Origin: Eledone cirrhosa | Lineage: Eukaryota | Reading direction: 5' to 3' | NCBI GenBank assembly: GCA_964016885.1 | Contig: OZ024740.1 | Span: 427,738,001-427,802,000, forward strand | Length of the DNA: 64,000 nt | Shown here: positions 1-64,000 of the stretch, piece after piece | Numbering within the stretch: the stretch's first letter is position 1 | Layout: every line of letters begins with the position of its first letter | Notes under the pieces: model-generated | What the model was told of the DNA's origin: nothing | Seen by the model: only the letters and a program-made list of their open reading frames with translations | Databases searched by the model: none | Position numbers and translations under genes: made by a program

Positions 1-1641
1 TATCTCACTGTACCATAGTTATATAAAACTCTACTCTATCTCACTGTACCATAGTTATATAAAACTCTACCCTATCTCACTGTACCATAGTTATATAAAA
101 CAGTACCCTATCTCACTGTACCATAGTTATATAAAACTCTACCCTATCTCACTGTACCATAGTTATATAAAACACTACCCTATCTCACTGTACCATAGTT
201 ATATAAAACTCTACCCTATCGCACTGTACCATAGTTATATAAAACTCTACCCTATCTCAGTGTTGTATAGTTATATAAAACTCTACACTATCTCACTGTA
301 CCATAGTTATATAAAACTCTACCCTATCTCACTGTACCATAGTTATATAAAACTCTACCCTATCTCACTGTACCATAGTTATATAAAACTCTACCCTATC
401 TCAGTGTTGTATAGTTATATAAAACTCTACCCTATCTCACTGTACCATAGTTATATAAACTCTACCCTATCTCACTGTACCATAGTTATATAAAACTCTA
501 CCCTATCTCAGTGTACCATAGTTATATAAAACTCTACCCTATCTCAGTGTACCATAGTTATATAAAACTCTACCCTATCTCAGTGTACCATAGTTATATA
601 AAACTCTACCCTATCTCACTGTACCATAGTTATATAAATCTCTACCCTATCTCACTGTACCTTAGTTATATAAAACTCTACCCTATCTCAGTGTACCATA
701 GTTATATAAATCTCTACCCTATCTCACTGTACTATAGTTATATAAAACTCTACCCTATCTCACTGTACCATAGTTATATAAAACTCTACTCTATCTCACT
801 GTACCATAGTTATATAAAACTCTACCCTATCTCACTGTACCATAGTTATATAAAACAGTACCCTATCTCACTGTACCATAGTTATATAAAACTCTACCCT
901 ATCTCACTGTACCATAGTTATATAAAACACTACCCTATCTCACTGTACCATAGTTATATAAAACTCTACCCTATCTCACTGTACCATAGTTATATAAAAC
1001 TCTACCCTATCTCAGTGTTGTATAGTTATATAAAACTCTACACTATCTCACTGTACCATAGTTATATAAAACTCTACCCTATCTCACTGTACCATAGTTA
1101 TATAAAACTCTACCCTATCTCACTGTACCATAGTTATATAAAACTCTACCCTATCTCAGTGTTGTATAGTTATATAAAACTCTACCCTATCTCACTGTAC
1201 CATAGTTATATAAACTCTACCCTATCTCACTGTACCATAGTTATATAAAACTCTACCCTATCTCAGTGTACCATAGTTATATAAAACTCTACCCTATCTC
1301 AGTGTACCATAGTTATATAAAACTCTACCCTATCTCACTGTACCATAGTTATATAAAACTCTACCCTATCTCAGTGTACCATAGTTATATAAAACTCTAC
1401 CCTATCTCACTGTACCATAGTTATATAAAACTCTACCCTATCTCAGTGCACCATAGTTATAGAAAACTCTACCTTATCTTAGTGTACCATAGTTATATAA
1501 AACTCTACCCTATCTCAGTGTTGTATAGTTATATAAAACTCTACCCTATCTCACTGTACCATAGTTATATAAAACTCTACCCTATCTCACTGTACCATAG
1601 TTGTATACAACTCTACCCTATCTCACTGTACCATAGTTATA
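1..1641. repeat. 36-bp tandem satellite array, left segment (about 45 monomers, open at the window edge)
   Basis: Head-to-tail copies of TATCTCACTGTACCATAGTTATATAAAACTCTACCC, mostly the CACT variant; two 35-bp monomers (AAAA>AAA at 457-459 and 1212-1214). Confidence 0.99.
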
Positions 1642-2596
1642 CTAGACATGAAAAATGCGCAAGCTCAAAAGTGCCACAGAATGTTATAATAAACCTTCAA
1701 AAGTGTGGGACTAGAGTTGTTGCTAAAAAATATTGTAATCATTATATATCGTACATTCTGTGGCATCCTTTATAAAAATAGCTTAAACCAACGAAGCCTT
1801 TATTTTTACGCTATTTCACTTAGTTAATTCTTAGAGTGTAACATATAAAAATATGATTTACAACTATAAAATAAATTAATTAATATAATAACAGAGCTGC
1901 GGAGCTGAAATTTAGGAAATAATGGAGTATTGGATCCTGAGTTGGAGCCAGTCAATTTTTGACCGACTCCGCAGCCCTGTATAATACATTTCATATTAAA
2001 GTTATTAATAAACCTATTTTACACTTCATGCAAATTACCACGAGATATTGATATTAGATATAAGATACAGCGCAATATCTACAGCTGTAAAAGTACGAAA
2101 GCGAAGTAATAATAAGTGGCTTAAGGTAATTCCAATATGAAAGTTTGTAGTGATAAAAATTTGATAATGCAATACGATTGTTAATATTATAGTTCTATGA
2201 AAATGTAACAATAGATAACTAAATTATTTTACTATTAGTATATTTAAGAAATTATCATTATAGATTTGATCGTTCATATAAGCATCATATTAAGTTTCAA
2301 CACAATTATTTTGTTACTATGAGTATATGATAATAATATTACGTAATTATTTATAGCTGTTATTACATTAAACATAGATGTATTTATTTTTATATGTTAC
2401 ACTCTAAGAATTAACTAAGTGAAATAGCGTAAAAATAAAGGCTTCGTTGGTTTAAGCTATTTTTATAAAGGATGCCACAGAATGTACGATATATAATGAT
2501 TACAATATTTTTTAGCAACAACTCTAGTCCCACACTTTTGAAGGTTTATTATAACATTCTGTGGCACTTTTGAGCTTGCGCATTTTTCATGTCTAG
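1642..2596. repeat. 212-bp perfect inverted repeat (arms 1642-1853 and 2385-2596, 531-bp spacer)
   Basis: The left arm ctagacatgaaaaatgcgcaagctc...gtaacatataaaaata is the reverse complement of tatttttatatgttac...gagcttgcgcatttttcatgtctag. I saw no mismatch or indel by eye, and both end pairs sum to 4238. Confidence 0.97.
1892..1979. mobile_element. 88-bp hAT-like MITE / internally deleted DNA transposon
   Basis: TIRs are cagagctgcggag (1892-1904) and ctccgcagccctg (1967-1979), 12/13 complementary, with CAG termini. Flanking 8-mers tataataa (1884-1891) and tataatac (1980-1987) match 7/8, consistent with an 8-bp hAT TSD. It forms a GC-richer island in AT-rich DNA. Confidence 0.65.
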
Positions 2597-3153
2597 TTTA
2601 ATATTTTTTTAAGGCAACGCTTGTAATAACTCTAGTTAAACAGGATATATATTAATAATAAATTATCGTTGTAATGTAATTAGATTATGTAATTGTTATT
2701 ATAAATTATCTTATAAATATTAGTGTAAGATGTATAAAAATATTTTCAGACTTTTAATATAAACAACTACAAAAAACAATCAATATTAAATCAATATATT
2801 ATACATAATAGAAAACATAAAATATACAATACAAAAACAAAATATTTACATACATTTGCAATTATCAGTGTATATACATTTTCTTTATATTCCCTGAGCA
2901 AATTAATAAGATTTGTTTTTATTGTACATAATTTGATGACTTGTTGGAGTGTATTAAAAGATAGCAACAATTTGTGATTAAATTGTTATCTTAAGCAACT
3001 CACTTTTTAATAGTTGTTGGCTGAGCGAAATTGTAAAAGCCTATGAGCAAATATAAAAAAAAATACACAAACAACATTTCCTTGTGTTATTACAACATTA
3101 GATAAAATAATTGAGCAATGTCGTTATATTTTGCTCTTATTGCACATTAATAG

Positions 3154-3321
3154 TGTTTCTATTTTTCGGCACAAATCCATTACGGCAGTCCATTACTGGT
3201 ACTTTATTTTATCGAATTAGTAAGTATGAAAGTCGAAGTTAACCTCGGCAGGATTTGAACTTAGAATGCAAAGGACCATAACAATACTGCAAAGCATGGT
3301 GTCTGACGCTCTACCAATACT
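3154..3321 (-). mobile_element. Diverged tRNA-derived SINE copy, slightly 5'-truncated
   Basis: Colinear with 4017-4202: cattactggtactttattttatcga, aagttaacctcggc, ggatttgaact (B box on the minus strand), aaagcatgg, ctctacc. No TSD seen. Confidence 0.8.
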
Positions 3322-3711
3322 TGTGTTGAGCTGGTCATTAATTTATGGTGGTCGTGCGTGAAGTAGAGCAATCGCTAGTTGAAATATTATGAACAAAACA
3401 TTTTTATTTGCCGAAGAACATATTTTCAATACTGTTTGTGAATGTGACGAAGGAAATACATTCTGATATGGAACAGTGTACAAAGTGTGTCTGTGAATAA
3501 CATAATGTTACCTCATGTTGTTGTCAAGACATAATGGATTTCGTTTATCCAGTTAGAAGATGAAACCTAGCCATCTCGGATTAGTTATATTTCATGCCAT
3601 GTGTAAACGTGTTTGAGGATAGCAAAATATGCGCGTTAATTATAATAATTAGTTAATAATATTACAAAATATACCTAATTAAACTCTTTGCTTGAAATTT
3701 TATCATTCTTC

Positions 3712-3714
<3 letters not shown>

Positions 3715-3788
<74 letters not shown>
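3715..3788. repeat. Compound microsatellite (TA)18(GA)19
   Basis: Pure TA run 3715-3750 directly followed by a pure GA run 3751-3788. Confidence 0.98.
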
Positions 3789-3792
<4 letters not shown>

Positions 3793-4016
3793 TCTAGTCC
3801 TTCGCTCAAGATTAATCTATAAGTTTAGATGTTTGCCTTCGTTTAAGTAAATATTACAGTAAGATTTTTAATATAAACAACTGCAAAAAACAATTAATAT
3901 TAAAACGAAAAAATTATCAATGATAAAAGAAGCGGATGCAACTTTTTTTTTTATAAAGTTATATTCCTGTTTCTTTAAAGAACATTTCATTTTTGTTCTA
4001 TTGTAGGCGAAATAAT

Positions 4017-4202
4017 TGTTTCTACTTTAGGCACAAGGCCAGCAAATTACCCAGTACATTACTGGTACTTTATTTTATCGACCCCGTAAGGATGAAAGGC
4101 AAAGTTAACCTCGGCGGGATTTGAACTCAGACTGTAAAGGGACGTAACTATGCTAGAAAGCATGGCGTCCAACCCTCTACCGATACTGCCAATTCACCGC
4201 CC
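4017..4202 (-). mobile_element. tRNA-derived SINE with intact 5' head and 15-bp target-site duplication
   Basis: Perfect TSD tgtaggcgaaataat at 4002-4016 and 4203-4217. The minus strand starts GGGCGGTGAATTGGCAGTATCGG (A-box-like, 4180-4191), has B box GAGTTCAAATCC (4117-4128), then the core GCCTTTCATCCTTACGGGGTCGATAAAATAAAGTACCAGT. Confidence 0.9.
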
Positions 4203-4349
4203 TGTAGGCGAAATAATGCAATGGTTTAATAGGGAAGATATAACTTACGAATTATGTCTCTAACCGTGTAACGCTTTTTAAGTAGATAACTACAATTGAA
4301 AATACTAAAGAAATGGAACCAACAATTCAATTTGAAAGTCGTCTAGTGA

Positions 4350-4401
4350 CAGTGTATTACTGGTACTTTATTTTATCGACCCCGTAACGATGAAAGGCAA
4401 A
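4350..4401 (-). mobile_element. SINE core fragment (same family)
   Basis: attactggtactttattttatcgaccccgtaacgatgaaaggcaaa is nearly identical to 4058-4103. Confidence 0.85.
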
Positions 4402-4430
4402 AATGCAAATGCTTAAAATTTAAATTGCCT

Positions 4431-4530
4431 TAATTCTATCGTCTGCTGTTTCATTAAAGGGAGATTATCGTCTGTATGTAATTCTATCGTCTACTGTTCC
4501 ACTAAACAGATATACCTCCACTATCGTCTC
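4431..4530. repeat. Short degenerate tandem duplication (period 48) with recurring TATCGTCT
   Basis: taattctatcgtct[g/a]ctgtt[t/c]ca[t/c]taaa at 4431-4458 and 4479-4506; tatcgtct occurs four times in about 100 bp. Confidence 0.75.
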
Positions 4531-4764
4531 TATTTATACATTTTAACTTATAACTTATACACATTTGATTTGAAATATTTTATCTAGTCCCCCCTCTCAA
4601 TATTATGATGATTTCTTTCGAATGAAACAGTTCTAGTCCTGTAGAAGCCATTTATATATATAATTGAACTGAGTTAAAAATTCACAATATTTATAATTAA
4701 ATAAGCTCATATATATATGTGTGTATTTATCTGTTTATTGTATTATATATAATGTGTGTATATA

Positions 4765-4795
4765 CAGGATGTCCCCCAAAAATATATACACACTT
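4765..4795. mobile_element. Possible solo Tc1/mariner-type terminal inverted repeat remnant
   Basis: TA followed by CAGGATGTCCCCCAAAAATATATACACACTT resembles TA|CAGGGTGTCCC-type termini (recalled similarity only). No convincing partner TIR found. Confidence 0.3.
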
Positions 4796-4900
4796 CAACA
4801 GCATTCTAATAACTATTGCCTGTACAGGTAATCAAAGTGTCAATCGAATGTTAGTTTCGTGTTTTAACAGTACAAATTTACAATACACACATAAAACCAG

Positions 4901-4950
4901 TGTATATACATACATGAGTGTGTATACACATACATGAATGTGTATATACA
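4901..4950. repeat. 20-bp minisatellite, 2.5 copies
   Basis: tgtatatacatacatgagtg / tgtatacacatacatgaatg / tgtatataca. Confidence 0.8.
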
Positions 4951-5009
4951 ATATATATGTATATATATATATAGACACATGTATTCACGGTGCAACGGTA
5001 CATTAAAAT

Positions 5010-5250
5010 ATAGATGCGGGAGAGGGGGTGTATATATAGGGGCGCTGGGGATAAAGGAGTGTAAAGCGTGTGTAATTGATATATTGAAGGAGAGGAGCGT
5101 GCAGCGATAGAGTAACAAATATATAGAGAGGGGGAGAGATGGTATTGAAGGGGAGGAGTGCAAAGCGAAAGAGTAAGAGATATAAATAGAGACGGAACAG
5201 ATAGAGAGAAACAGGCGTAAGTAACAGTGGAAGAGATATAGAGAGAGGTA
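5010..5250. repeat. Purine (GA)-rich low-complexity tract
   Basis: Strong G/A strand bias (gagagggggagagatgg, gaaggggaggagtg, gatagagagaaac). This explains the Leu/Ser/Pro-rich minus-strand ORFs. Confidence 0.7.
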
Positions 5251-5253
5251 CTC

Positions 5254-5278
5254 TGATTGGTTGAAAATTAGCCAATGA
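5254..5278. promoter_or_regulatory. Pair of oppositely oriented CCAAT-box motifs near the TC end of the element
   Basis: tgATTGGtt (ATTGG at 5256-5260) and agCCAATga (CCAAT at 5272-5276) both fit the NF-Y-type RRCCAATSR pattern. Function is not demonstrated. Confidence 0.35.
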
Positions 5279-5334
5279 CATACGATCACCACCACGGCTA
5301 TCCCCGAAAAATTTTTAAAGAAGCTAGGCATATA

Positions 5335-5388
5335 TGTTAGAACACGAAAAGTGAACATTCTGTGTTTCACACTTTTCGTGTTCTAACA
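5335..5388. other. Terminal hairpin: perfect 19-bp stem, 16-nt loop, 2 bp from the element end
   Basis: tgttagaacacgaaaagtg (5335-5353) is the reverse complement of cacttttcgtgttctaaca (5370-5388); the loop is aacattctgtgtttca. Confidence 0.95.
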
Positions 5389-5390
5389 GA

Positions 5391-8300
5391 TAAAACTCTA
5401 CCCAATCTCACTGTACCATAGTTATATAAAACTCTACATTATCTCAGTGTACCATAGTTATATAAAACTCTACCCTATCTCAGTGTACCATAGTTATATA
5501 AAACTCTACCCTATTTCACTGTACCATAGTTGTATAAAACTCTACCCTATCTCAGTGTACCATAGTTATATAAAACTCTACCCTATCTCACTGTACCATA
5601 GTTATATAAAACTCAACCCTATCTCAGTGTACCATAGTTATATAAAACTCTACCCTATCTCACTGTACCATAGTTATATAAATCTCTACCCTATCTCACT
5701 GTACCATAGTTATATAAAACTCTACCCTATCTCAGTGTACCATAGTTATATAAATCTCTACCCTATCTCACTGTACCATAGTTGTATAAAACTCTACCCT
5801 ATCTCACTGTACCATAGTTATATAAAACTCTACTCTAGCTCACTGTACCATAGTTATATAAAACTCTACCCTATCTCACTGTACCATAGTTATATAAAAC
5901 TCTACCCTATCTCACTGTACCATAGTTATATAAAACTCTACCCTATCTCAGTGTTGTATAGTTATATAAAACTCTACACTATCTCACTGTACCATAGTTA
6001 TATAAAACTCTACCCTATCTCACTGTACCATAGTTATATAAAACTCTACCCTATCTCACTGTACCATAGTTATATAAAACTCTACCCTATCTCAGTGTTG
6101 TATAGTTATATAAAACTCTACCCTATCTCACTGTACCATAGTTATATAAAACTCTACTCTATCTCACTGTACCATAGTTATATAAAACTCTACCCTATCT
6201 CACTGTACCATAGTTATATAAAACTCTACCCTATCTCACTGTACCATAGTTATATAAAACTCTACCCTATCTCACTGTACCATAGTTATATAAAACTCTA
6301 CTCTATCTCACTGTACCATAGTTATATAAAACTCTACCCTATCTCACTGTACCATAGTTATATAAAACTCTACACTATCTCACTGTACCATAGTTATATA
6401 AAACACTACCCTATCTCACTGTACCATAGTTATATAAAACTCTACCCTATCTCACTGTACCATAGTTATATAAAACTCTACCCTATCTCAGTGTTGTATA
6501 GTTATATAAAACTCTACACTATCTCACTGTACCATAGTTATATAAAACTCTACCCTATCTCACTGTACCATAGTTATATAAAACTCTACCCTATCTCACT
6601 GTACCATAGTTATATAAAACTCTACCCTATCTCAGTGTTGTATAGTTATATAAAACTCTACCCTATCTCACTGTACCATAGTTATATAAACTCTACCCTA
6701 TCTCACTGTACCATAGTTATATACAACTCTACCCTATCTCAGTGTACAATAGTTATATAAAACTCTACCCTATCTCAGTGTTGTATAGTTATATAAAACT
6801 CTACCCTATCTCACTGTACCATAGTTATATAAAACTCTATCCTATCTCAGTGTACCATAGTTATATAAAACTCTACCCTATCTCACTGTACCATAGTTAT
6901 AGAAAACTCTACCCTATCTTAGTGTACCATAGTTATATAAAACTCTACCCTATCTCAGTGTTGTATAGTTATATAAAACTCTACCCTATCTCACTGTACC
7001 ATAGTTATATAAAACTCTACCCTATCTCACTGAACCATAGTTGTATACAACTCTACCCTATCTCACAGTACCATAGTTATATAAAACTCTACCCTATCTC
7101 ACTGTACCATAGTTATATAAATCTCTACCCTATCTCACTGTACCATAGTTATATAAAACTCTACACTATCTCAGTGTACCATAGTTATATAAAACTCTAC
7201 CCTATCTCTGTGTACCATAGTTATATAAAACTCTACCCTATCTCACTGTACCATAGTTGTATAAAACTCTACCCTATCTCACTGTACCATAGTTATATAA
7301 AACTCTACCCTATCTCACTGTACCATAGTTGTATACAACTCTACCCTATCTCACTGCACCATAGTTATATAAAACTCTACCCTATCTCACTGTACCATAG
7401 TTATATAAATCTCTACCCTATCTCACTCTACCATAGTTATATAAAACTCTACACTATCTCAGTGTACCATAGTTATATAAAACTCTACCCTATCTCAGTG
7501 TACCATAGTTATATAAAACTCTACCCTATCTCACTGTACCATAGTTGTATAAAACTCTACCCTATCTCAGTGTACCATAGTTATATAAAACTCTACCCTA
7601 TCTCACTGTACCATAGTTATATAAAACTCTACCCTATCTCGGTGTACCATAGTTATATAAAACTCTACCCTATCTCAGTGATGTATAGTTATATAAAACT
7701 GTACGCTATCACAGTATACCATAGTTATATAAAACTCTACCCTATCTCTGTGTACCATAGTTATATAAAACTCTACCCTATCTCACTCTACCATAGTTAT
7801 ATAAAACTCTACCCTATCTCAGTGTACCATAGTTATATAAAACTCTACTCTATCTCACTGTACCATAGTTATATAAAACTCTACCCTATCTCACTGTACC
7901 ATAGTTATATAAAACTCTACCCTATCTCAGTGTACCATAGTTATATAAAACTCTACTCTATCTCACTGTACCATAGTTATATAAAACTCTACCCTATCTC
8001 ACTGTACCATAGTTATATAAAACTCTACCCTATCTCACTGTACCATAGTTATATAAAACTCTACACTATCTCACTGTACCATAGTTATATAAAACACTAC
8101 CCTATCTCACTGTACCATAGTTATATAAAACTCTACCCTATCTCACTGTACCATAGTTATATAAAACTCTACCCTATCTCAGTGTTGTATAGTTATATAA
8201 AACTCTACACTATCTCACTGTACCATAGTTATATAAAACTCTACCCTATCTCACTGTACCATAGTTATATAAAACTCTACCCTATCTCACTGTACCATAG

Positions 8301-11300
8301 TTATATAAAACTCTACCCTATCTCAGTGTTGTATAGTTATATAAAACTCTACCCTATCTCACTGTACCATAGTTATATAAATCTCTACCCTATCTCACTC
8401 TACCATAGTTATATAAAACTCTACACTATCTCAGTGTACCATAGTTATATAAAACTCTACCCTATCTCAGTGTACCATAGTTATATAAAACTCTACCCTA
8501 TCTCACTGTACCATAGTTGTATAAAACTCTACCCTATCTCAGTGTACCATAGTTATATAAAACTCTACCCTATCTCACTGTACCATAGTTATATAAAACT
8601 CTACCCTATCTCGGTGTACCATAGTTATATAAAACTCTACCCTATCTCAGTGATGTATAGTTATATAAAACTGTACGCTATCACAGTATACCATAGTTAT
8701 ATAAAACTCTACCCTATCTCTGTGTACCATAGTTATATAAAACTCTACCCTATCTCACTCTACCATAGTTATATAAAACTCTACCCTATCTCAGTGTACC
8801 ATAGTTATATAAAACTCTACTCTATCTCACTGTACCATAGTTATATAAAACTCTACCCTATCTCACTGTACCATAGTTATATAAAACTCTACCCTATCTC
8901 AGTGTACCATAGTTATATAAAACTCTACTCTATCTCACTGTACCATAGTTATATAAAACTCTACCCTATCTCACTGTACCATAGTTATATAAAACTCTAC
9001 CCTATCTCACTGTACCATAGTTATGTAAAACTCTACCCTATCTCAGTGTACCATAGTTATATAAAACTCTACCCTATCTCACTGTACCATGGTTATATAA
9101 AAATTTACCCTATCTCAGTGTACCATAGTTATATAAAACTCTACCCTATATCACTCTACCATAGTTATATAAAACTCTACCCTATCTCAGTGTACCATAG
9201 TTATATAAAACTCTACCCTATCTCACTCTACCATAGATATATAAAACTCTACCCTATCTCAGTGCACCATAGTTATAGAAAACTCTACCCTATCTCAGTG
9301 TACCATAGTTATATAAAACTCTACCCTATCTCAGTGTACCATAGTTATATAAAACTCTACCCTATCTCAGTGTTGTATAGTTATATAAAACTCTACCCTA
9401 TCTCAGTGTACCATAGTTATATAAAACTCTACCCTATCTCACTGTTGTATAGTTATATAAAACTCTACCCTATCTCAGTGTACCATAGTTATATAAAACT
9501 CTACCCTATCTCAGTGTTGTATAGTTATATAAAACTCTACCCTATCTCAGTGTACCATAGTTATATAAAACTCTACCCTATCTCAGTGTACCATAGTTAT
9601 ATAAAACTCTACCCTATCTCAGTGTACCATAGTTATATAAAACTCTACCCTATCTCAGAGTACGATAGTTATATAAAACTCTACCCTATCTCAGTGTTGT
9701 ATAGTTATATAAAACACTACCCTATCTCACTGTACCATAGTTATATAAAACTCTACCCTATCTCAGTGTACCATAGTTATATAAAACTCTACCCTATCTC
9801 AGTGTTGTATAGTTATATAAAACTCTACCCTATCTCACTGTACCATAGTTATGTAAAACTCTACCCTATCTCAGTGTACCATAGTTATATAAAACTCTAC
9901 CCTATCTCACTGTACCATAGTTATATAAAACTCTACCCTATCTCAGTGTACCATAGTTATATAAAACTCTACCCTATCTCAGTGTTGTATAGTTATATAA
10001 AACTCTACCCTATCTCAGTGTACCATAGTTATATAAAACTCTACCCTATCTCACTGTTGTATAGTTATATAAAACTCTACCCTATCTCAGTGTACCATAG
10101 TTATGTAAAACTCTACCCTATCTCAGTGTACCATAGTTATATAAAACTCTACCCTATCTCACTGTTGTATAGTTATATAAAACTCTACCCTATCTCAGTG
10201 TACCATAGTTATATAAAACTCTACCCTATCTCAGTGTTGTATAGTTATATAAAACTCTACCCTATCTCACTGTACCATAGTTATGTAAAACTCTACCCTA
10301 TCTCAGTGTACCATAGTTATATAAAACTCTACCCTATCTCACTGTACCATAGTTATATAAAACTCTACCCTATCTCAGTGTACCATAGTTATATAAAACT
10401 CTACCTTATCTCAGTGTTGTATAGTTATATAAAACTCTACCCTATCTCAGTGTACCATAGTTATATAAAACTCTACCCTATCTCACTGTTGTATAGTTAT
10501 ATAAAACTCTACCCTATCTCAGTGTACCATAGTTATATAAAACTCTACCCTATCTCAGTGTTGTATAGTTATATAAAAATTTACCCTATCTCAGTGTACC
10601 ATAGTTATATAAAACTCTACCCTATCTCACTGTACTATAGTTATATAAAACTCTACCCTATCTCACTGTACCATAGTTATATAAAACTCTACTCTATCTC
10701 ACTGTACCATAGTTATATAAAACTCTACCCTATCTCACTGTACCATAGTTATATAAAACTCTACCCTATCTCACTGTACCATAGTTATATAAAACTCTAC
10801 CCTATCTCACTGTACCATAGTTATATAAAACTCTACTCTATCTCACTGTACCATAGTTATATAAAACTCTACCCTATCTCACTGTACCATAGTTATATAA
10901 AACTCTACCCTATCTCACTGTACCATAGTTATATAAAACACTACCCTATCTCACTGTACCATAGTTATATAAAACTCTACCCTATCTCACTGTACCATAG
11001 TTATATAAAACTCTACCCTATCTCAGTGTTGTATAGTTATATAAAACTCTACACTATCTCACTGTACCATAGTTATATAAAACTCTACCCTATCTCACTG
11101 TACCATAGTTATATAAAACTCTACCCTATCTCACTGTACCATAGTTATATAAAACTCTACCCTATCTCAGTGTTGTATAGTTATATAAAACTCTACCCTA
11201 TCTCACTGTACCATAGTTATATAAACTCTACCCTATCTCACTGTACCATAGTTATATACAACTCTACCCTATCTCAGTGTACAATAGTTATATAAAACTC

Positions 11301-14300
11301 TACCCTATCTCAGTGTTGTATAGTTATATAAAACTCTACCCTATCTCACTGTACCATAGTTATATAAAACTCTATCCTATCTCAGTGTACCATAGTTATA
11401 TAAAACTCTACCCTATCTCACTGTACCATAGTTATATAAAACTCTACCCTATCTCAGTGCACCATAGTTATAGAAAACTCTACCCTATCTTAGTGTACCA
11501 TAGTTATATAAAACTCTACCCTATCTCAGTGTTGTATAGTTATATAAAACTCTACCCTATCTCACTGTACCATAGTTATATAAAACTCTACCCTATCTCA
11601 CTGTACCATAGTTGTATACAACTCTACCCTATCTCACTGTACCATAGTTATATAAAACTCTACCCTATCTCACTGTACCATAGTTATATAAAACTCTACA
11701 CTATCTCAGTGTACCATAGTTATATAAAACTCTACCCTATCTCAGTGTACCATAGTTATATAAAACTCTACCCTATCTCACTGTACCATAGTTGTATAAA
11801 ACTCTACCCTATCTCAGTGTACCATAGTTATATAAAACTCTACTCTATCTCACTGTACCATAGTTATATAAAACTCTACCCTATCTCAGTGTACCATAGT
11901 TATATAAAACTCTACCCTATCTCAGTGATGTATAGTTATATAAAACTGTACGCTATCACAGTATACCATAGTTATATAAAACTCTACCCTATCTCTGTGT
12001 ACCATAGTTATATAAAACTCTACCCTATCTCACTCTACCATAGTTATATAAAACTCTACCCTATCTCAGTGTACCATAGTTATATAAAACTCTACTCTAT
12101 CTCACTGTACCATAGTTATATAAAACTCTACCCTATCTCACTGTACCATAGTTATATAAAACTCTACCCTATCTCAGTGTACCATAGTTATATAAAACTC
12201 TACTCCATCTCACTGTACCATAGTTATATAAAACTCTACCCTATCTCACTGTACCATAGTTATATAAAACTCTACCCTATCTCACTGTACCATAGTTATG
12301 TAAAACTCTACCCTATCTCAGTGTACCATAGTTATATAAAACTCTACCCTATCTCACTGTACCATGGTTATATAAAAATTTACCCTATCTCAGTGTACCA
12401 TAGTTATATAAAACTCTACCCTATCTCACTCTACCATAGTTATATAAAACTCTACCCTATCTCAGTGTACCATAGTTATATAAAACTCTACCCTATCTCA
12501 CTCTACCATAGATATATAAAACTCTACCCTATCTCAGTGCACCATAGTTATAGAAAACTCTACCCTATCTCAGTGTACCATAGTTATATAAAACTCTACC
12601 CTATCTCAGTGTACCATAGTTATATAAAACTCTACCCTATCTCAGTGTTGTATAGTTATATAAAACTCTACCCTATCTCAGTGTACCATAGTTATATAAA
12701 ACTCTACCCTATCTCACTGTTGTATAGTTATATAAAACTCTACCCTATCTCAGTGTACCATAGTTATATAAAACTCTACCCTATCTCAGTGTTGTATAGT
12801 TATATAAAACTCTACCCTATCTCAGTGTACCATAGTTATATAAAACTCTACCCTATCTCAGTGTACCATAGTTATATAAAACTCTACCCTATCTCAGTGT
12901 ACCATAGTTATATAAAACTCTACCCTATCTCAGAGTACCATAGTTATATAAAACTCTACCCTATCTCAGTGTTGTATAGTTATATAAAACACTACCCTAT
13001 CTCACTGTACCATAGTTATATAAAACTCTACCCTATCTCAGTGTACCATAGTTATATAAAACTCTACCCTATCTCAGTGTTGTATAGTTATATAAAACTC
13101 TACCCAATCTCACTGTACCATAGTTATGTAAAACTCTACCCTATCTCAGTGTACCATAGTTATATAAAACTCTACCCTATCTCACTGTACCATAGTTATA
13201 TAAAACTCTACCCTATCTCAGTGTACCATAGTTATATAAAACTCTACCCTATCTCAGTGTTGTATAGTTATATAAAACTCTACCCTATCTCAGTGTACCA
13301 TAGTTATATAAAACTCTACCCTATCTCACTGTTGTATAGTTATATAAAACTCTACCCTATCTCAGTGTACCATAGTTATGTAAAACTCTACCCTATCTCA
13401 GTGTACCATAGTTATATAAAACTCTACCCTATCTCACTGTTGTATAGTTATATAAAACTCTACCCTATCTCAGTGTACCATAGTTATATAAAACTCTACC
13501 CTATCTCAGTGTTGTATAGTTATATAAAACTCTACCCTATCTCACTGTACCATAGTTATGTAAAACTCTACCCTATCTCAGTGTACCATAGTTATATAAA
13601 ACTCTACCCTATCTCACTGTACCATAGTTATATAAAACTCTACCCTATCTCAGTGTACCATAGTTATATAAAACTCTACCCTATCTCAGTGTTGTATAGT
13701 TATATAAAACTCTACCCTATCTCAGTGTACCATAGTTATATAAAACTCTACCCTATCTCACTGTTGTATAGTTATATAAAACTCTACCCTATCTCAGTGT
13801 ACCATAGTTATATAAAACTCTACCCTATCTCAGTGTTGTATAGTTATATAAAAATTTACCCTATCTCAGTGTACCATAGTTATATAAAACTCTACCCTAT
13901 CTCACTGTACTATAGTTATATAAAACTCTACCCTATCTCACTGTACCATAGTTATATAAAACTCTACTCTATCTCACTGTACCATAGTTATATAAAACTC
14001 TACCCTATCTCACTGTACCATAGTTATATAAAACTCTACCCTATCTCACTGTACCATAGTTATATAAAACTCTACCCTATCTCACTGTACCATAGTTATA
14101 TAAAACTCTACTCTATCTCACTGTACCATAGTTATATAAAACTCTACCCTATCTCACTGTACCATAGTTATATAAAACTCTACCCTATCTCACTGTACCA
14201 TAGTTATATAAAACACTACCCTATCTCACAGTACCATAGTTATATAAAACTCTACCCTATCTCACTGTACCATAGTTATATAAATCTCTACCCTATCTCA

Positions 14301-17300
14301 CTGTACCATAGTTATATAAAACTCTACACTATCTCAGTGTACCATAGTTATATAAAACTCTACCCTATCTCTGTGTACCATAGTTATATAAAACTCTACC
14401 CTATCTCACTGTACCATAGTTGTATAAAACTCTACCCTATCTCACTGTACCATAGTTATATAAAACTCTACCCTATCTCACTGTACCATAGTTGTATACA
14501 ACTCTACCCTATCTCACTGTACCATAGTTATATAAAACTCTACCCTATCTCACTGTACCATAGTTATATAAATCTCTACCCTATCTCACTCTACCATAGT
14601 TATATAAAACTCTACACTATCTCAGTGTACCATAGTTATATAAAACTCTACCCTATCTCAGTGTACCATAGTTATATAAAACTCTACCCTATCTCACTGT
14701 ACCATAGTTGTATAAAACTCTACCCTATCTCAGTGTACCATAGTTATATAAAACTCTACCCTATCTCACTGTACCATAGTTATATAAAACTCTACCCTAT
14801 CTCGGTGTACCATAGTTATATAAAACTCTACCCTATCTCAGTGATGTATAGTTATATAAAACTGTACGCTATCACAGTATACCATAGTTATATAAAACTC
14901 TACCCTATCTCTGTGTACCATAGTTATATAAAACTCTACCCTATCTCACTCTACCATAGTTATATAAAACTCTACCCTATCTCAGTGTACCATAGTTATA
15001 TAAAACTCTACTCTATCTCACTGTACCATAGTTATATAAAACTCTACCCTATCTCACTGTACCATAGTTATATAAAACTCTACCCTATCTCAGTGTACCA
15101 TAGTTATATAAAACTCTACTCTATCTCACTGTACCATAGTTATATAAAACTCTACCCTATCTCACTGTACCATAGTTATATAAAACTCTACCCTATCTCA
15201 CTGTACCATAGTTATGTAAAACTCTACCCTATCTCAGTGTACCATAGTTATATAAAACTCTACCCTATCTCACTGTACCATGGTTATATAAAAATTTACC
15301 CTATCTCAGTGTACCATAGTTATATAAAACTCTACCCTATATCACTCTACCATAGTTATATAAAACTCTACCCTATCTCAGTGTACCATAGTTATATAAA
15401 ACTCTACCCTATCTCACTCTACCATAGATATATAAAACTCTACCCTATCTCAGTGCACCATAGTTATAGAAAACTCTACCCTATCTCAGTGTACCATAGT
15501 TATATAAAACTCTACCCTATCTCAGTGTACCATAGTTATATAAAACTCTACCCTATCTCAGTGTTGTATAGTTATATAAAACTCTACCCTATCTCAGTGT
15601 ACCATAGTTATATAAAACTCTACCCTATCTCACTGTTGTATAGTTATATAAAACTCTACCCTATCTCAGTGTACCATAGTTATATAAAACTCTACCCTAT
15701 CTCAGTGTTGTATAGTTATTTAAAACTCTACCCTATCTCAGTGTACCATAGTTATATAAAACTCTACCCTATCTCAGTGTACCATAGTTATATAAAACTC
15801 TACCCTATCTCAGTGTACCATAGTTATATAAAACTCTACCCTATCTCAGAGTACCATAGTTATATAAAACTCTACCCTATCTCAGTGTTGTATAGTTATA
15901 TAAAACACTACCCTATCTCACTGTACCATAGTTATATAAAACTCTACCCTATCTCAGTGTACCATAGTTATATAAAACTCTACCCTATCTCAGTGTTGTA
16001 TAGTTATATAAAACTCTACCCTATCTCACTGTACCATAGTTATGTAAAGCTCTACCCTATCTCAGTGTACCATAGTTATATAAAACTCTACCCTATCTCA
16101 CTGTACCATAGTTATATAAAACTCTACCCTATCTCAGTGTACCATAGTTATATAAAACTCTACCCTATCTCAGTGTTGTATAGTTATATAAAACTCTACC
16201 CTATCTCAGTGTACCATAGTTATATAAAACTCTACCCTATCTCACTGTTGTATAGTTATATAAAACTCTACCCTATCTCAGTGTACCATAGTTATGTAAA
16301 ACTCTACCCTATCTCAGTGTACCATAGTTATATAAAACTCTACCCTATCTCACTGTTGTATAGTTATATAAAACTCTACCCTATCTCAGTGTACCATAGT
16401 TATATAAAACTCTACCCTATCTCAGTGTTGTATAGTTATATAAAACTCTACCCTATCTCACTGTACCATAGTTATGTAAAACTCTACCCTATCTCAGTGT
16501 ACCATAGTTATATAAAACTCTACCCTATCTCACTGTACCATAGTTATATAAAACTCTACCCTATCTCAGTGTACCATAGTTATATAAAACTCTACCTTAT
16601 CTCAGTGTTGTATAGTTATATAAAACTCTACCCTATCTCAGTGTACCATAGTTATATAAAACTCTACCCTATCTCACTGTTGTATAGTTATATAAAACTC
16701 TACCCTATCTCAGTGTACCATAGTTATATAAAACTCTACCCTATCTCAGTGTTGTATAGTTATATAAAAATTTACCCTATCTCAGTGTACCATAGTTATA
16801 TAAAACTCTACCCTATCTCACTGTACTATAGTTATATAAAACTCTACCCTATCTCACTGTACCATAGTTATATAAAACTCTACTCTATCTCACTGTACCA
16901 TAGTTATATAAAACTCTACCCTATCTCACTGTACCATAGTTATATAAAACTCTACCCTATCTCACTGTACCATAGTTATATAAAACTCTACCCTATCTCA
17001 CTGTACCATAGTTATATAAAACTCTACTCTATCTCACTGTACCATAGTTATATAAAACTCTACCCTATCTCACTGTACCATAGTTATATAAAACTCTACC
17101 CTATCTCACTGTACCATAGTTATATAAAACACTACCCTATCTCACTGTACCATAGTTATATAAAACTCTACCCTATCTCACTGTACCATAGTTATATAAA
17201 ACTCTACCCTATCTCAGTGTTGTATAGTTATATAAAACTCTACACTATCTCACTGTACCATAGTTATATAAAACTCTACCCTATCTCACTGTACCATAGT

Positions 17301-20300
17301 TATATAAAACTCTACCCTATCTCACTGTACCATAGTTATATAAAACTCTACCCTATCTCAGTGTTGTATAGTTATATAAAACTCTACCCTATCTCACTGT
17401 ACCATAGTTATATAAACTCTACCCTATCTCACTGTACCATAGTTATATACAACTCTACCCTATCTCAGTGTACAATAGTTATATAAAACTCTACCCTATC
17501 TCAGTGTTGTATAGTTATATAAAACTCTACCCTATCTCACTGTACCATAGTTATATAAAACTCTATCCTATCTCAGTGTACCATAGTTATATAAAACTCT
17601 ACCCTATCTCACTGTACCATAGTTATATAAAACTCTACCCTATCTCAGTGCACCATAGTTATAGAAAACTCTACCCTATCTTAGTGTACCATAGTTATAT
17701 AAAACTCTACCCTATCTCAGTGTTGTATAGTTATATAAAACTCTACCCTATCTCACTGTACCATAGTTATATAAAACTCTACCCTATCTCACTGTACCAT
17801 AGTTGTATACAACTCTACCCTATCTCACTGTACCATAGTTATATAAAACTCTACCCTATCTCACTGTACCATAGTTATATAAAACTCTACACTATCTCAG
17901 TGTACCATAGTTATATAAAACTCTACCCTATCTCAGTGTACCATAGTTATATAAAACTCTACCCTATCTCACTGTACCATAGTTGTATAAAACTCTACCC
18001 TATCTCAGTGTACCATAGTTATATAAAACTCTACCCTATCTCACTGTACCATAGTTATATAAAACTCTACCCTATCTCAGTGTACCATAGTTATATAAAA
18101 CTCTACCCTATCTCAGTGATGTATAGTTATATAAAACTGTACGCTATCACAGTATACCATAGTTATATAAAACTCTACCCTATCTCTGTGTACCATAGTT
18201 ATATAAAACTCTACCCTATCTCACTCTACCATAGTTATATAAAACTCTACCCTATCTCAGTGTACCATAGTTATATAAAACTCTACTCTATCTCACTGTA
18301 CCATAGTTATATAAAACTCTACCCTATCTCACTGTACCATAGTTATATAAAACTCTACCCTATCTCAGTGTACCATAGTTATATAAAACTCTACTCCATC
18401 TCACTGTACCATAGTTATATAAAACTCTACCCTATCTCACTGTACCATAGTTATATAAAACTCTACCCTATCTCACTGTACCATAGTTATGTAAAACTCT
18501 ACCCTATCTCAGTGTACCATAGTTATATAAAACTCTACCCTATCTCACTGTACCATGGTTATATAAAAATTTACCCTATCTCAGTGTACCATAGTTATAT
18601 AAAACTCTACCCTATCTCACTCTACCATAGTTATATAAAACTCTACCCTATCTCAGTGTACCATAGTTATATAAAACTCTACCCTATCTCACTCTACCAT
18701 AGATATATAAAACTCTACCCTATCTCAGTGCACCATAGTTATAGAAAACTCTACCCTATCTCAGTGTACCATAGTTATATAAAACTCTACCCTATCTCAG
18801 TGTACCATAGTTATATAAAACTCTACCCTATCTCAGTGTTGTATAGTTATATAAAACTCTACCCTATCTCAGTGTACCATAGTTATATAAAACTCTACCC
18901 TATCTCACTGTTGTATAGTTATATAAAACTCTACCCTATCTCAGTGTACCATAGTTATATAAAACTCTACCCTATCTCAGTGTTGTATAGTTATATAAAA
19001 CTCTACCCTATCTCAGTGTACCATAGTTATATAAAACTCTACCCTATCTCAGTGTACCATAGTTATATAAAACTCTACCCTATCTCAGTGTACCATAGTT
19101 ATATAAAACTCTACCCTATCTCAGAGTACCATAGTTATATAAAACTCTACCCTATCTCAGTGTTGTATAGTTATATAAAACACTACCCTATCTCACTGTA
19201 CCATAGTTATATAAAACTCTACTCTATCTCAGTGTACCATAGTTATATAAAACTCTACCCTATCTCAGTGTTGTATAGTTATATAAAACTCTACCCAATC
19301 TCACTGTACCATAGTTATGTAAAACTCTACCCTATCTCAGTGTACCATAGTTATATAAAACTCTACCCTATCTCACTGTACCATAGTTATATAAAACTCT
19401 ACCCTATCTCAGTGTACCATAGTTATATAAAACTCTACCCTATCTCAGTGTTGTATAGTTATATAAAACTCTACCCTATCTCAGTGTACCATAGTTATAT
19501 AAAACTCTACCCTATCTCACTGTTGTATAGTTATATAAAACTCTACCCTATCTCAGTGTACCATAGTTATGTAAAACTCTACCCTATCTCAGTGTACCAT
19601 AGTTATATAAAACTCTACCCTATCTCACTGTTGTATAGTTATATAAAACTCTACCCTATCTCAGTGTACCATAGTTATATAAAACTCTACCCTATCTCAG
19701 TGTTGTATAGTTATATAAAACTCTACCCTATCTCACTGTACCATAGTTATGTAAAACTCTACCCTATCTCAGTGTACCATAGTTATATAAAACTCTACCC
19801 TATCTCACTGTACCATAGTTATATAAAACTCTACCCTATCTCAGTGTACCATAGTTATATAAAACTCTACCCTATCTCAGTGTTGTATAGTTATATAAAA
19901 CTCTACCCTATCTCAGTGTACCATAGTTATATAAAACTCTACCCTATCTCACTGTTGTATAGTTATATAAAACACTACCCTATCTCAGTGTACCATAGTT
20001 ATATAAAACTCTACCCTATCTCAGTGTTGTATAGTTATATAAAAATTTACCCTATCTCAGTGTACCATAGTTATATAAAACTCTACCCTATCTCACTGTA
20101 CTATAGTTATATAAAACTCTACCCTATCTCACTGTACCATAGTTATATAAAACTCTACTCTATCTCACTGTACCATAGTTATATAAAACTCTACCCTATC
20201 TCACTGTACCATAGTTATATAAAACTCTACCCTATCTCACTGTACCATAGTTATATAAAACTCTACCCTATCTCACTGTACCATAGTTATATAAAACTCT

Positions 20301-62300: not shown

Positions 62301-64000
62301 TATAAAACTCTACCCTATCTCAGTGTACCATAGTTATATGAAACTCTACCCTATCTCAGTGTTGTATAGTTATATAAAACTCTACCCTATCTCAGTGTTG
62401 TATAGTTATATAAAACTGTACGCTATCACAGTATACCACAGTTATATAAAACTCTACCCTATCTCAGTGTACCATAGTTATATAAAACTCTACCCTATCT
62501 CACTCTACCATAGTTATATAAAACTCTACCCTATCTCAGTGTACCATAGTTATATAAAACTCTACCCTATCTCACTCTACCATAGATATATAAAACTCTA
62601 CCCTATCTCAGTGCACCATAGTTATAGAAAACACTACCCTATCTCAGTGTACCATAGTTATATAAAACTCTACCCTATCTCAGTGTACCATAGTTATATA
62701 AAACTCTACCCTATCTCAGTGTTGTATAGTTATATAAAACTCTACCCTATCTCAGTGTACCATAGTTATATAAAACTCTACCCTATCTCACTGTTGTATA
62801 GTTATATAAAACTCTACCCTATCTCAGTGTACCATAGTTATATAAAACTCTACCCTATCTCAGTGTTGTATAGTTATATAAAACTCTACCCTATCTCAGT
62901 GTACCATAGTTATATAAAACTCTACCCTATCTCAGTGTACCATAGTTATATAAAACTCTACCCTATCTCAGTGTACCATAGTTATATAAAACTCTACCCT
63001 ATCTCAGAGTACCATAGTTATATAAAACTCTACCCTATCTCAGTGTTGTATAGTTATATAAAACACTACCCTATCTCACTGTACCATAGTTATATAAAAC
63101 TCTACCCTATCTCAGTGTACCATAGTTATATAAAACTCTACCCTATCTCAGTGTTGTATAGTTATATAAAACTCTACCCTATCTCACTGTACCATAGTTA
63201 TGTAAAACTCTACCCTATCTCAGTGTACCATAGTTATATAAAACTCTACCCTATCTCACTGTACCATGGTTATATAAAAATTTACCCTATCTCAGTGTAC
63301 CATAGTTATATAAAACTCTACCCTATCTCACTCTACCATAGTTATATAAAACTCTAACCTATCTCAGTGTACCATAGTTATATAAAACTCTACCCTATCT
63401 CACTCTACCATAGATATATAAAACTCTACCCTATCTCAGTGCACCATAGTTATAGAAAACTCTACCCTATCTCAGTGTACCATAGTTATATAAAACTCTA
63501 CCCTATCTCAGTGTACCATAGTTATATAAAACTCTACCCTATCTCAGTGTTGTATAGTTATATAAAACTCTACCCTATCTCAGTGTACCATAGTTATATA
63601 AAACTCTACCCTAACTCACTGTTGTATAGTTATATAAAACTCTACCCTATCTCAGTGTACCATAGTTATATAAAACTCTACTCTATCTCAGTGTACCATA
63701 GTTATATAAAACTCTACCCTATCTCAGTGTACCATAGTTATATAAAACTCTACTCTATCTCAGTGTACCATAGTTATATAAAATTCTACCCTATCTCAGT
63801 GTACCATAGTTATATAAAACTCTACCCTATCTCAGTGTTGTATAGTTATATAAAACACTACCCTATCTCAGTGTACCATAGTTATATAAAACTCTACCCT
63901 ATCTCAGTGTACCATAGTTATATAAAACTCTACCCTATCTCAGTGTTGTATAGTTATATAAAACTCTACCCTATCTCAGTGTACCATAGTTATATAAAAC
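5391..64000. repeat. 36-bp tandem satellite array, main segment (about 1,630 monomers, open at the window edge), with irregular higher-order block duplications
   Basis: Uninterrupted, single-orientation monomers with recurrent variants (CACT/CAGT, TACCAT/TTGTAT, ACAC, ATGT, AGAAAA and others) recurring in fixed order. The only length variants seen are four 1-bp deletions (6688, 11223, 17414, 22669). Confidence 0.99.

What the first reader, a model, noticed from the sequence alone, without database searches (positions are those of the whole stretch)
1642..2596. Fold-back terminus: the CTAG end is duplicated as a perfect 212-bp inverted repeat
Seen: the terminal 212 bp reappear inverted 531 bp inward and end in CTAG|T at 2593-2597, so the element has two identical CTAG ends facing opposite ways. 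The arms look identical, while the spacer holds a decayed MITE and nearby cargo is diverged, so the arms are recent or actively homogenised. Canonical Helitrons have only a short 3' hairpin, and I see no such short GC-rich hairpin beside this CTAG. Inference: a template switch during rolling-circle replication, a second terminus usable on the other strand, or a 955-bp fold-back unit of its own. It would form a long stem in an ssDNA intermediate, or dsRNA if transcribed.
Basis: partly seen in the sequence, partly recalled or inferred. Interest (0 to 1): 0.75.

Follow-up and report, generated by a model that had tools for sequence, protein, structure and literature searches.

The report
Helitron with a long fold-back tail
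The 955-base inverted repeat is the standard 3' end of a rolling-circle transposon (Helitron) family present in many hundreds of copies in this genome, and this long hairpin likely replaces the short hairpin that normally tells the transposase where to stop.

Summary
Window 1641-1853 and 2385-2597 are perfectly complementary (213 nt, including a flanking A and T), and 531 nt lie between them.

It is not a one-off rearrangement, an assembly artefact or a free-standing TIR element. It is the 3' end of a 3,749-bp non-autonomous canonical Helitron (window 1642-5390, minus strand). The element starts with 5'-TC, ends with CTAG-3', and sits between A and T of a 36-bp satellite whose phase continues exactly across it.

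About 670-700 copies in the genome carry the same 955-bp fold-back. An older subfamily (444-bp unit, 181-nt arms) and a middle one also carry a fold-back. No unit was found apart from the Helitron body. The last 45-70 nt contain no canonical short hairpin.

After insertion the two arms decay independently. One-arm-only versus mirrored changes were 35 versus 0 in young copies and 372 versus 12 in old copies. Between subfamilies, all 7 diagnostic arm changes are present on both arms, and the majority arms of the old and young subfamilies are perfect. The arms are therefore re-copied from each other in the transposing lineage.

I infer that the long hairpin acts as the transposition terminator. 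This is a new variant of a known kind and of moderate interest.

The parts
1..1641 (.). 36-bp satellite, left host flank of the insertion
   Evidence: TRF: period 36, 45.6 copies, 94% matches. It ends ...CCATAGTTATA at 1641.
1642..5390 (-). Non-autonomous canonical Helitron, 3,749 bp. On the minus strand it reads 5'-TCTGTTAGAAC...CATGTCTAG-3'.
   Evidence: The satellite phase continues exactly across it (GTTATA|TAAAACTC). The window copy and 7 other copies with both ends in the fetched DNA are all flanked A|TC at the 5' end and followed by host T at the 3' end, without TSD; one of them ends CTAT instead of CTAG. Copies are 97-99.6% alike over long stretches.
1642..1853 (-). Outer arm: the terminal 212 nt of the element. 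The CTAG cleavage site at 1642-1645 is the 3' end on the minus strand.
   Evidence: Host T follows CTAG in all 15 places.
1854..2384 (-). 531-nt spacer (loop of the fold-back), 26% G+C
   Evidence: It carries 4 common two-state sites among copies.
1892..1979 (.). MITE-like insert in the spacer: CAGAG.../...CCCTG ends with TATAATAA / TATAATAC flanks
   Evidence: Read from the sequence. Its first 36 nt give 337+364 hits, and all places listed lie inside fold-back units.
2385..2596 (-). Inner arm: inverted copy of the terminal 212 nt, abutting the body at ...ATATTAAA|CTAG
2597..5334 (-). Non-coding body of the element, holding tRNA-like SINE copies and (TA)n(GA)n
4017..4202 (.). SINE-like insertion present in the window copy and L032 but absent from the other copies that cover this site
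   Evidence: BLAST: other copies join element positions 1188 and 1375 with a 14-15-nt overlap.
5335..5388 (-). 5' terminal hairpin, starting at nt 3 of the element (19+4 bp stem)
   Evidence: strand folding DNA: -21.9 kcal/mol, z -9.75, 0 of 200 shuffles as good; the repeat finder I23.
5391..64000 (.). The same 36-bp satellite, right host flank
   Evidence: TRF reports periods 72 and 180 (multiples of 36) at 93% matches. It resumes TAAAACTCTACCC at 5391.

Best explanation
The 955-bp fold-back is the family-wide 3' end of a non-autonomous canonical Helitron. It likely works as an oversized version of the 3' hairpin that stops rolling-circle transposition, and its two arms are inferred to be re-copied from each other now and then while the element is single-stranded. 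Shown: the element is window 1642-5390 on the minus strand, 5'-TC...CTAG-3', inserted between A and T with no target-site duplication. Its last 212 nt are repeated in inverted form 531 nt inward. The same module sits at the end of about 670-700 young copies. Older relatives carry a 444-bp version (181-nt arms) and middle versions (arms 137-216 nt). No short hairpin lies near the CTAG. Arms decay independently once inserted, yet every change that distinguishes the subfamilies is present on both arms. Inferred: when the transposase-helicase peels off the transposon strand, the outer arm pairs with the inner arm. The long stem, which contains the CTAG, stalls the helicase and presents the cleavage site. 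In that intrastrand duplex, or during copying of the single strand, mismatches and apex rearrangements are resolved by templated copying (repair or template switch). Active lineages therefore keep perfect arms.
For: Identity as a Helitron end. The satellite phase continues across the 3,749-bp insert. All 8 elements with both ends in hand read A|TC at the 5' end and have host T after the 3' end, with lengths of 3,217-3,781 bp; 7 end CTAG and L047 ends CTAT. In 15 of 15 places, one side of the unit runs into the same body sequence and the other into variable host DNA that starts with T.

Family-wide. The terminal 42-mer (<=2 mismatches) gives 929+963 hits with 0 in the controls. The young-specific distal-arm 40-mer gives 663+674. 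The spacer 36-mer gives 337+364. Of 55 sources, 54 held a unit next to the body, and 47 of the 54 units are exactly 955 nt. Independent contigs bridge all three junctions.

Older versions. The old-type terminus gives 526+529 hits, and 29 of 30 loci have a partner arm. The majority sequence of 22 units is 444 nt with 181 perfect arm positions. A third junction type gives 81+75 hits.

No canonical hairpin: z +1.39 and -0.66 for the last 45 and 70 nt. In Helraiser the 3' hairpin is the terminator (PMC4778049, passages read).

Concerted change in the lineage. Old versus young arms differ at 5 substitutions and 1 indel in the shared 137 nt, identically on both arms. Adding the middle subfamily makes 7 of 7 diagnostic sites (7, 31, 81, 84, 105, 115, 128) the same on both arms in each majority. 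Middle copies carry the young-type apex with old states at 31, 84 and 105 on both arms, so these changes spread to both arms after that fold-back existed.

Snap-back products. The L185 type (units of 361-365 nt, 4 copies seen) mirrors 28 nt of spacer on both sides around a 32-nt loop.
Against: The terminator function is not tested; it rests on analogy with Helraiser and on the absence of any other hairpin. Arm copying is not obligatory at each transposition. A mosaic lineage (L104, L208, L213, L224) spread with arms of only 137 nt and with an unmirrored indel at position 128. After insertion there is almost no arm-to-arm correction. Young copies show 35 one-arm changes and 0 mirrored. Old copies show 372 one-arm changes against 12 mirrored, with 4.3 expected by chance, and arm-to-arm divergence of 6.7% is about the sum of the two arms' divergence from the majority, 7.1%. 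Part of the young arm (75 of its 212 nt) belongs to a 681-nt apex segment with its own inverted ends, so not all of the symmetry need come from correction. The autonomous partner was not found. Three of the 5 RepHel loci I looked at end in an ordinary short terminus unrelated to this one. The samples are the first-listed places, mostly on contig C1, and were chosen by exact matches in the first 38-42 nt of at least one arm.
Confidence: 0.55

Rival explanations
1. Neutral passenger palindrome. An old inverted duplication of the 3' end is carried along because it does no harm. The last few tens of bases plus CTAG are enough for termination, and the arms stay alike in the lineage only through the ordinary instability and gene conversion of any long inverted repeat.
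For: Lineages with much shorter or asymmetric arms exist and some spread. The mosaic type has 137-nt arms (4 copies seen), and single units have arms of 51, 58 and 80 nt. The apex is a hot spot for deletions and flips. In Helraiser the right end is not strictly required (PMC4778049, passages).
Against: In all three subfamilies nearly every sampled copy keeps a stem of at least 137 nt that reaches the CTAG: 53 of 54 young units (L040 has a rearranged 287-nt unit), 29 of 30 old loci and 14 of 15 middle units (L205 has 118-nt arms). No other hairpin is present near the end. Inserted copies show next to no arm conversion, so generic conversion in duplex DNA is weak here. Yet 7 of 7 lineage changes are mirrored.
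Confidence: 0.3
2. The inner CTAG is a second terminus used on the opposite strand, so the module ends transposition from either direction.
For: On the plus strand the inner arm reads ...CATGTCTAG|T, a formally valid Helitron 3' end.
Against: A search for the body junction preceded by something other than the arm found only 7+6 places. Eleven of them have an arm with a point change at that spot, and the other two (L086, L087) have no clear partner arm. No element was seen that ends at the inner CTAG. A 5' end would have to lie in host DNA beyond the outer arm.
Confidence: 0.05
3. The unit is an independent long-TIR (foldback or MITE-like) transposon that happens to lie at the end of this Helitron.
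For: It has perfect 212-nt terminal inverted repeats and a size typical of such elements.
Against: None of the 54 young, 29 old and 15 middle units examined stands without the Helitron body. Flanks are body on one side and host on the other, with no target-site duplication. The count of units matches the count of the internal spacer marker.
Confidence: 0.02
4. The inversion is an assembly or chimera artefact.
For: Palindromes are a known artefact of some library preparations.
Against: Hundreds of loci with different flanks share the structure. Contigs from runs X1, X2 and X4 bridge each junction.
Confidence: 0.01

Closest known systems
Canonical Helitrons (Helitron1 type; Helibat/Helraiser as the tested example)
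   Same: 5'-TC and CTAG-3' ends, insertion between A and T without duplication, a non-autonomous derivative in many copies, and a hairpin-forming sequence at the 3' end. In Helraiser that hairpin acts as the terminator (PMC4778049, passages read).
   Different: Helraiser has a 19-bp palindrome 11 nt upstream of the end. Here the stem is 181-212 bp (137 bp at the least) and the loop 32-531 nt. The stem runs to the last base, so CTAG itself is paired with an inner CTAG. No short hairpin exists.
Lepidopteran and dipteran non-autonomous Helitrons with a 5'-inverted repeat and subterminal inverted repeats (Hel-2, Lep1; PMC4344730, passages read)
   Same: A hairpin at the very 5' end, further inverted repeats near the ends, and 5'-TC / 3'-CTAG with A/T flanks.
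   Different: As far as the passages say, those repeats are short, the elements are a few hundred bp long, and a separate ordinary 3' stem-loop is present upstream of CTRR.
Helentrons / Helitron2 and DINE-1 (PMC4067079, search listing only; features recalled)
   Same: Rolling-circle elements with inverted repeats at or near the termini.
   Different: Recalled features (short asymmetric terminal inverted repeats, insertion between T and T) do not fit. This element is TC...CTAG between A and T.
Foldback elements and long-TIR MITEs
   Same: Long perfect inverted repeats around a short middle part.
   Different: The unit has no target-site duplication and never occurs without the Helitron body.
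Hairpin ends read by HUH enzymes, and palindrome correction (parvovirus terminal hairpins with flip/flop; IS200/IS605 subterminal hairpins; quasi-palindrome template-switch mutation; arm-to-arm conversion in sex-chromosome palindromes). All recalled, none read here.
   Same: A single-strand hairpin marks the site for an HUH nuclease. One arm serves as template for the other. The loop is found in both orientations.
   Different: Loop inversion is rare here: 1 of 53 young units and 3 of 44 old units, not about half as in hairpin transfer. Correction is occasional, not part of every cycle.

Membership tests
Canonical Helitron (non-autonomous) | 5'-TC and 3'-CTRR termini | tested here: met
   TCTGTTAGAAC...CATGTCTAG in the window and 7 other complete copies; one of them ends CTAT.
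Canonical Helitron (non-autonomous) | Insertion between host A and T, no target-site duplication | tested here: met
   8 of 8 complete elements are flanked by A and T. Removing 1642-5390 restores the satellite unit exactly.
Canonical Helitron (non-autonomous) | Short (about 16-20 nt) hairpin some 10-12 nt upstream of the 3' end | tested here: not met
   The last 45 and 70 nt fold no better than shuffles. A 212-bp stem that includes the CTAG takes its place.
Canonical Helitron (non-autonomous) | A RepHel-encoding partner with matching ends in the same genome | tested here: inconclusive
   Helitron_like_N gives 3,704 candidates, and all 150 scored are above the cut-off. None of the 5 RepHel loci read shares these ends; 3 of 5 end ...GCTCCGCTAG|T.
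TIR transposon / foldback element / MITE | Unit bounded by inverted repeats and flanked by a target-site duplication, occurring on its own | tested here: not met
   Inverted repeats are present. However, none of the sampled units stands alone, and the flanks are body versus host.
Helentron / Helitron2 | Short asymmetric terminal inverted repeats and insertion between T and T (recalled definition) | tested here: not met
   Flanks are A and T and termini are TC/CTAG.

The most novel reading that the evidence does not exclude
A Helitron lineage has swapped the short 3' hairpin for a self-templating terminator. This is a 140-210-bp stem that contains the cleavage site and is rebuilt from one arm whenever the element passes through its single-stranded form. 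Mutations, indels and even new apex sequence are copied across to the other arm. That would be sequence-level evidence from nature for intrastrand pairing and templated repair in the Helitron single-strand intermediate. It would also show that stem length and sequence of the terminator are almost free.
Probability: 0.3. Interest if true: 0.7.

Novelty: new variant of a known kind. Interest (0 to 1): 0.55.

Why it matters
The role of the Helitron 3' hairpin is known from one reconstructed bat element. Here a natural, very young and probably active family (private divergence about 0.1-0.2% per site) ends in a hairpin ten times longer that swallows the cleavage site. Three successive subfamilies let one read how such a terminus evolves: independent decay in dead copies, and mirrored change in the line that keeps moving. 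This gives a direct handle on what the transposase needs at the right end and on whether the single-stranded intermediate is repaired. It is also a practical warning for annotation. Tools that look for a short GC-rich hairpin before CTRR would miss this family, and TIR or MITE finders would miscall its end as a 955-bp foldback element.

Tried and rejected
- The DNA search of the own genome with the arm found nothing, not even the window itself. The tool skips very common words, so the result is uninformative.
- Two patterns with IUPAC letters were too long and were shortened (then 21, 22).
- The count of the 5' 40-mer (66+60) looked far below the number of 3' ends. The cause is a 1-nt indel polymorphism in the 5' loop, so the count is an undercount and was not used.
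- Autonomous partner: five RepHel loci were read with 10 kb on each side. None shares the ends. A fold-back near one of them belongs to a separate 1,195-bp short relative.
- A third terminus type at arm position 7 (G or T) gave only 6+5 hits.
- Frequent single-arm variants in old copies were tested for linkage. None was found, so they are hot spots, many at CpG, and not hidden subfamilies.
- Expression: no RNA holder listed, so dsRNA or small-RNA ideas could not be looked at.
- Laying reads of runs X8-X11 (more distant holders) failed three times because the machine was busy.
- The search of earlier findings held nothing for this genome.
Only the top 11-20 listed titles and abstract starts of each search were seen, and subscription journals are not covered. 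PMC5714489 mentions fold-back only in another sense.

Full report
**1. The observation**

The repeat finder reports one outstanding inverted repeat in window 1-6000: arms 1637-1853 and 2385-2601 with 531 nt between them. A direct check shows exact complementarity for 1641-1853 against 2385-2597. That is 213 nt: the 212-nt arm plus an A at 1641 and a T at 2597. Complementarity stops there on both sides. CTAG lies at 1642-1645 and at 2593-2596. Folded as single-stranded DNA, the 955-nt unit gives -291 kcal/mol, against -75 +/- 5 for shuffles (z -42).

**2. The surroundings**

The window is almost entirely one 36-bp satellite, at 1-1641 and 5390-64000. It is interrupted by a 3.75-kb island.
- The satellite stops at ...CCATAGTTATA (1641) and resumes TAAAACTCTACCC at 5391. 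This is the unbroken unit ...GTTATA|TAAAACTC....
- The island 1642-5390 is therefore a clean insertion between A and T, with no duplication.
- On the minus strand it reads 5'-TCTGTTAGAAC ... CATGTCTAG-3', which is the signature of a canonical Helitron.
- The fold-back is its 3' end. The outer arm (1642-1853) is the true terminus, and the inner arm (2385-2596) is an inverted copy 531 nt upstream.

**3. Other copies**

*Counts*
- The terminal 42-mer (<=2 mismatches) occurs 929 times forward and 963 times reverse in the 3.0-Gb genome, and 0 times in the reversed-pattern controls. Nearly all listed places form +/- pairs 913 nt apart. This count includes old-type arms, which differ at exactly two of the 42 positions.
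- Markers specific to the young form give 663+674 hits (distal arm) and 337+364 hits (spacer). That is about 670-700 units.

*Flanks*
- In 15 of 15 places, one side of the unit continues into the same sequence (TTTAATATTTTTTTAAGGCAACGC..., the element body). The other side is variable host DNA, mostly TA-rich, that begins with T after CTAG.
- Longer stretches gave 8 elements with both ends in hand, the window included. All read A|TC at the 5' end and have host T after the 3' end, with lengths of 3,217-3,781 bp. One ends CTAT. Long stretches are 97-99.6% identical to the window copy.

*Unit sizes and exceptions*
- Of 55 sources (the window plus 54 loci), 54 hold a unit next to the body. Forty-seven of the 54 units are exactly 955 nt. 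One source (L081) has lost the inner arm and spacer by deletion. One unit (L040) is a rearranged 287-nt form.
- No unit stands alone, so the '955-bp element of its own' is excluded.

*Independent data*
- Contigs from three other public runs bridge the arm/spacer, spacer/arm and arm/body junctions, which excludes an artefact.

**4. No ordinary hairpin**

The last 45 and 70 nt fold no better than shuffled sequence (z +1.39 and -0.66). In Helraiser, a 19-bp palindrome 11 nt from the end is the main part of the right end and acts as the terminator. Its loss lowers transposition and raises read-through (PMC4778049, passages read). Here the only hairpin available at the 3' end is the 212-bp stem, which includes the CTAG itself. 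The 5' end also folds: nt 3-56 form a hairpin of -21.9 kcal/mol (z -9.75).

**5. Do the arms co-vary? Within inserted copies they do not.**

*Young family (52 units, flipped copy left out)*
- 35 arm differences from the majority are on one arm only, and none is mirrored.
- Private substitutions per site and copy are 0.0011 (inner arm), 0.0016 (outer arm) and 0.0022 (spacer). Arm positions 1-42 were fixed by the way copies were picked. Positions 43-212 give 9 and 15 changes.

*Old family (44 independent units of 400-470 nt)*
- 372 changes are on one arm and 12 are mirrored, with 4.3 expected from site frequencies. Two of the 12 come from two members of one tandem array.
- Arm-to-arm divergence (6.7%) is close to the sum of the two arms' divergence from the majority (7.1%).
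- Frequent variants are unlinked hot spots.
- One further unit has the same C-to-G change at position 7 on both arms.

Inserted copies therefore decay arm by arm, with at most rare conversion.

**6. Between subfamilies the arms do co-vary.**

Searches for exceptions at the body junction uncovered an older subfamily.
- Its terminus gives 526+529 hits at <=1 mismatch.
- 29 of 30 loci have a partner arm, and the loci with a readable junction show the same body flank.
- The majority of 22 units is 444 nt, with 181 perfectly complementary arm positions and an 82-nt loop.

*Old versus young*
- The arms are homologous for 137 nt and differ by 5 substitutions and one indel. All six differences are identical on both arms.

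*Middle group*
- A third junction type gives 81+75 hits, and 15 units were read. Its majority arm states are intermediate.
- Over the three groups, 7 of 7 diagnostic sites (7, 31, 81, 84, 105, 115, 128) carry the same state on both arms in each majority.
- Middle copies already have the young-type apex but old states at 31, 84 and 105 on both arms. Those substitutions therefore came to stand on both arms after that fold-back existed. One late inverted duplication cannot explain this.

Arm-to-arm identity within copies dates the three bursts. It is about 93-95% in old copies, about 97% in middle copies and >99.5% in young copies.

**7. The apex is plastic.**
- The young unit is 137 + 681 + 137 nt. 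The 681-nt middle has its own 75-nt inverted ends, which together with the shared 137 nt make the 212-nt arms.
- A mosaic type has the young-type apex on the inner side and old apex remains on the outer side. Its arms are 137 nt and it has an unmirrored indel at 128. It was seen in L104, L208, L213 and L224. It spread in that state, so correction is not part of every cycle.
- The L185 type (units of 361-365 nt, 4 copies seen: L215, L220, L221, L222) runs 28 nt into the spacer, turns after a 32-nt loop and mirrors the inner side. It looks like a snap-back or strand-switch product.
- Other units are asymmetric apex deletions, with arms of 51, 58 and 80 nt.
- The loop is inverted in 1 of 53 young units (L067). 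L040 derives from such a form. The loop is also inverted in 3 of 44 old units. Inversion is rare, unlike the 1:1 flip/flop of hairpin transfer.

**8. Mechanism**

*Shown:* the anatomy, the copy numbers, independent decay after insertion, and mirrored change along the lineage.

*Inferred:*
- In the displaced single strand, the outer arm pairs with the inner arm.
- The stem halts the 5'-to-3' helicase and presents CTAG|T for the second cleavage, as proposed for the short hairpin of Helraiser.
- While the stem is paired, or while the single strand is copied, mismatches and apex changes are resolved using the other arm as template.
- Only donors pass through this phase, which would explain why arms are perfect in each burst's founder and decay afterwards.

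I give this 0.55. The main rival (0.3) is that the palindrome is harmless baggage and its symmetry reflects general palindrome dynamics.

**9. What is known**

The element passes the membership tests for a canonical Helitron, except for the short subterminal hairpin. The partner test is open. RepHel is abundant: 3,704 candidates, with 150 of 150 scored above the cut-off. However, the 5 loci I read do not share these ends.

Short 5' inverted repeats and subterminal inverted repeats are described in insect Helitrons (PMC4344730, passages). Four full-text searches listed no paper whose title or abstract start describes a long terminal fold-back in a Helitron. These searches cover open-access text only.

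**10. Verdict**

The finding is real and explained. It is a new structural variant of a known kind of element, with an informative evolutionary pattern. Interest is 0.55.

Noticed in passing
window 1-1641 and 5391-64000: One 36-bp satellite fills more than 60 kb of the window. In run X5 (coded organism D) the Helitron is covered but the satellite bins 1400-1603 have zero depth, while runs X1, X2 and X4 cover them. The satellite may be lineage-specific.
   Followed up: partly
window 5335-5388 (minus strand): The element's 5' end is itself a strong hairpin starting at nt 3 (-21.9 kcal/mol, z -9.75). Its loop has a 1-nt indel polymorphism among copies.
   Followed up: partly
window 5354-5364; 1675-1685 and 2553-2563; also 1753-1764 and 2474-2485: The 11-mer CACAGAATGTT in the 5' hairpin loop recurs in the arms. 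Each arm also holds its inverted copy about 68 nt further in. The lineage change at arm position 115 (C to T) made that internal inverted repeat perfect. This could be a transposase-binding motif, but that is untested.
   Followed up: partly
window 4017-4202: A tRNA-like SINE copy is present in the window copy and in L032 but absent from the other copies that cover the site, where the flanks overlap by 14-15 nt. It is a nested insertion that marks a sub-lineage. Related SINE copies lie at 3186-3321 and 4350-4401.
   Followed up: partly
G000 contigs C19, C20, C27 (table): The genome holds thousands of Helitron Rep matches (3,704 candidates). Many of the best ones, with the same 362-aa open frame, lie in series about 100-130 kb apart on C20 and C27. 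This looks like a large segmental or tandem array containing a Helitron.
   Followed up: no
L105-L107 (G000:C1:52923421, 52928907, 52934399): Three old-type fold-back termini lie in the same orientation, spaced 5,486 and 5,492 bp apart, with identical flanks. This is a tandem array of a unit that contains the Helitron end.
   Followed up: no
L034: This copy has its first 77 nt, including the 5' hairpin, duplicated in tandem, so it has two 5' ends.
   Followed up: no
L141:4130-6910: Downstream of a 1,718-aa RepHel frame lies an unrelated element with long, nearly perfect inverted repeats (171 nt at 100%, 262 nt at 99%), bounded by (TA)n.
   Followed up: no
window 1500-5500: Runs labelled as four different coded organisms (A-D) hold 70-76% of the sampled 31-mers of this stretch, and three more hold 21-26%. 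Nearly identical copies are therefore shared by several labelled taxa, through close relatives or through transfer.
   Followed up: partly
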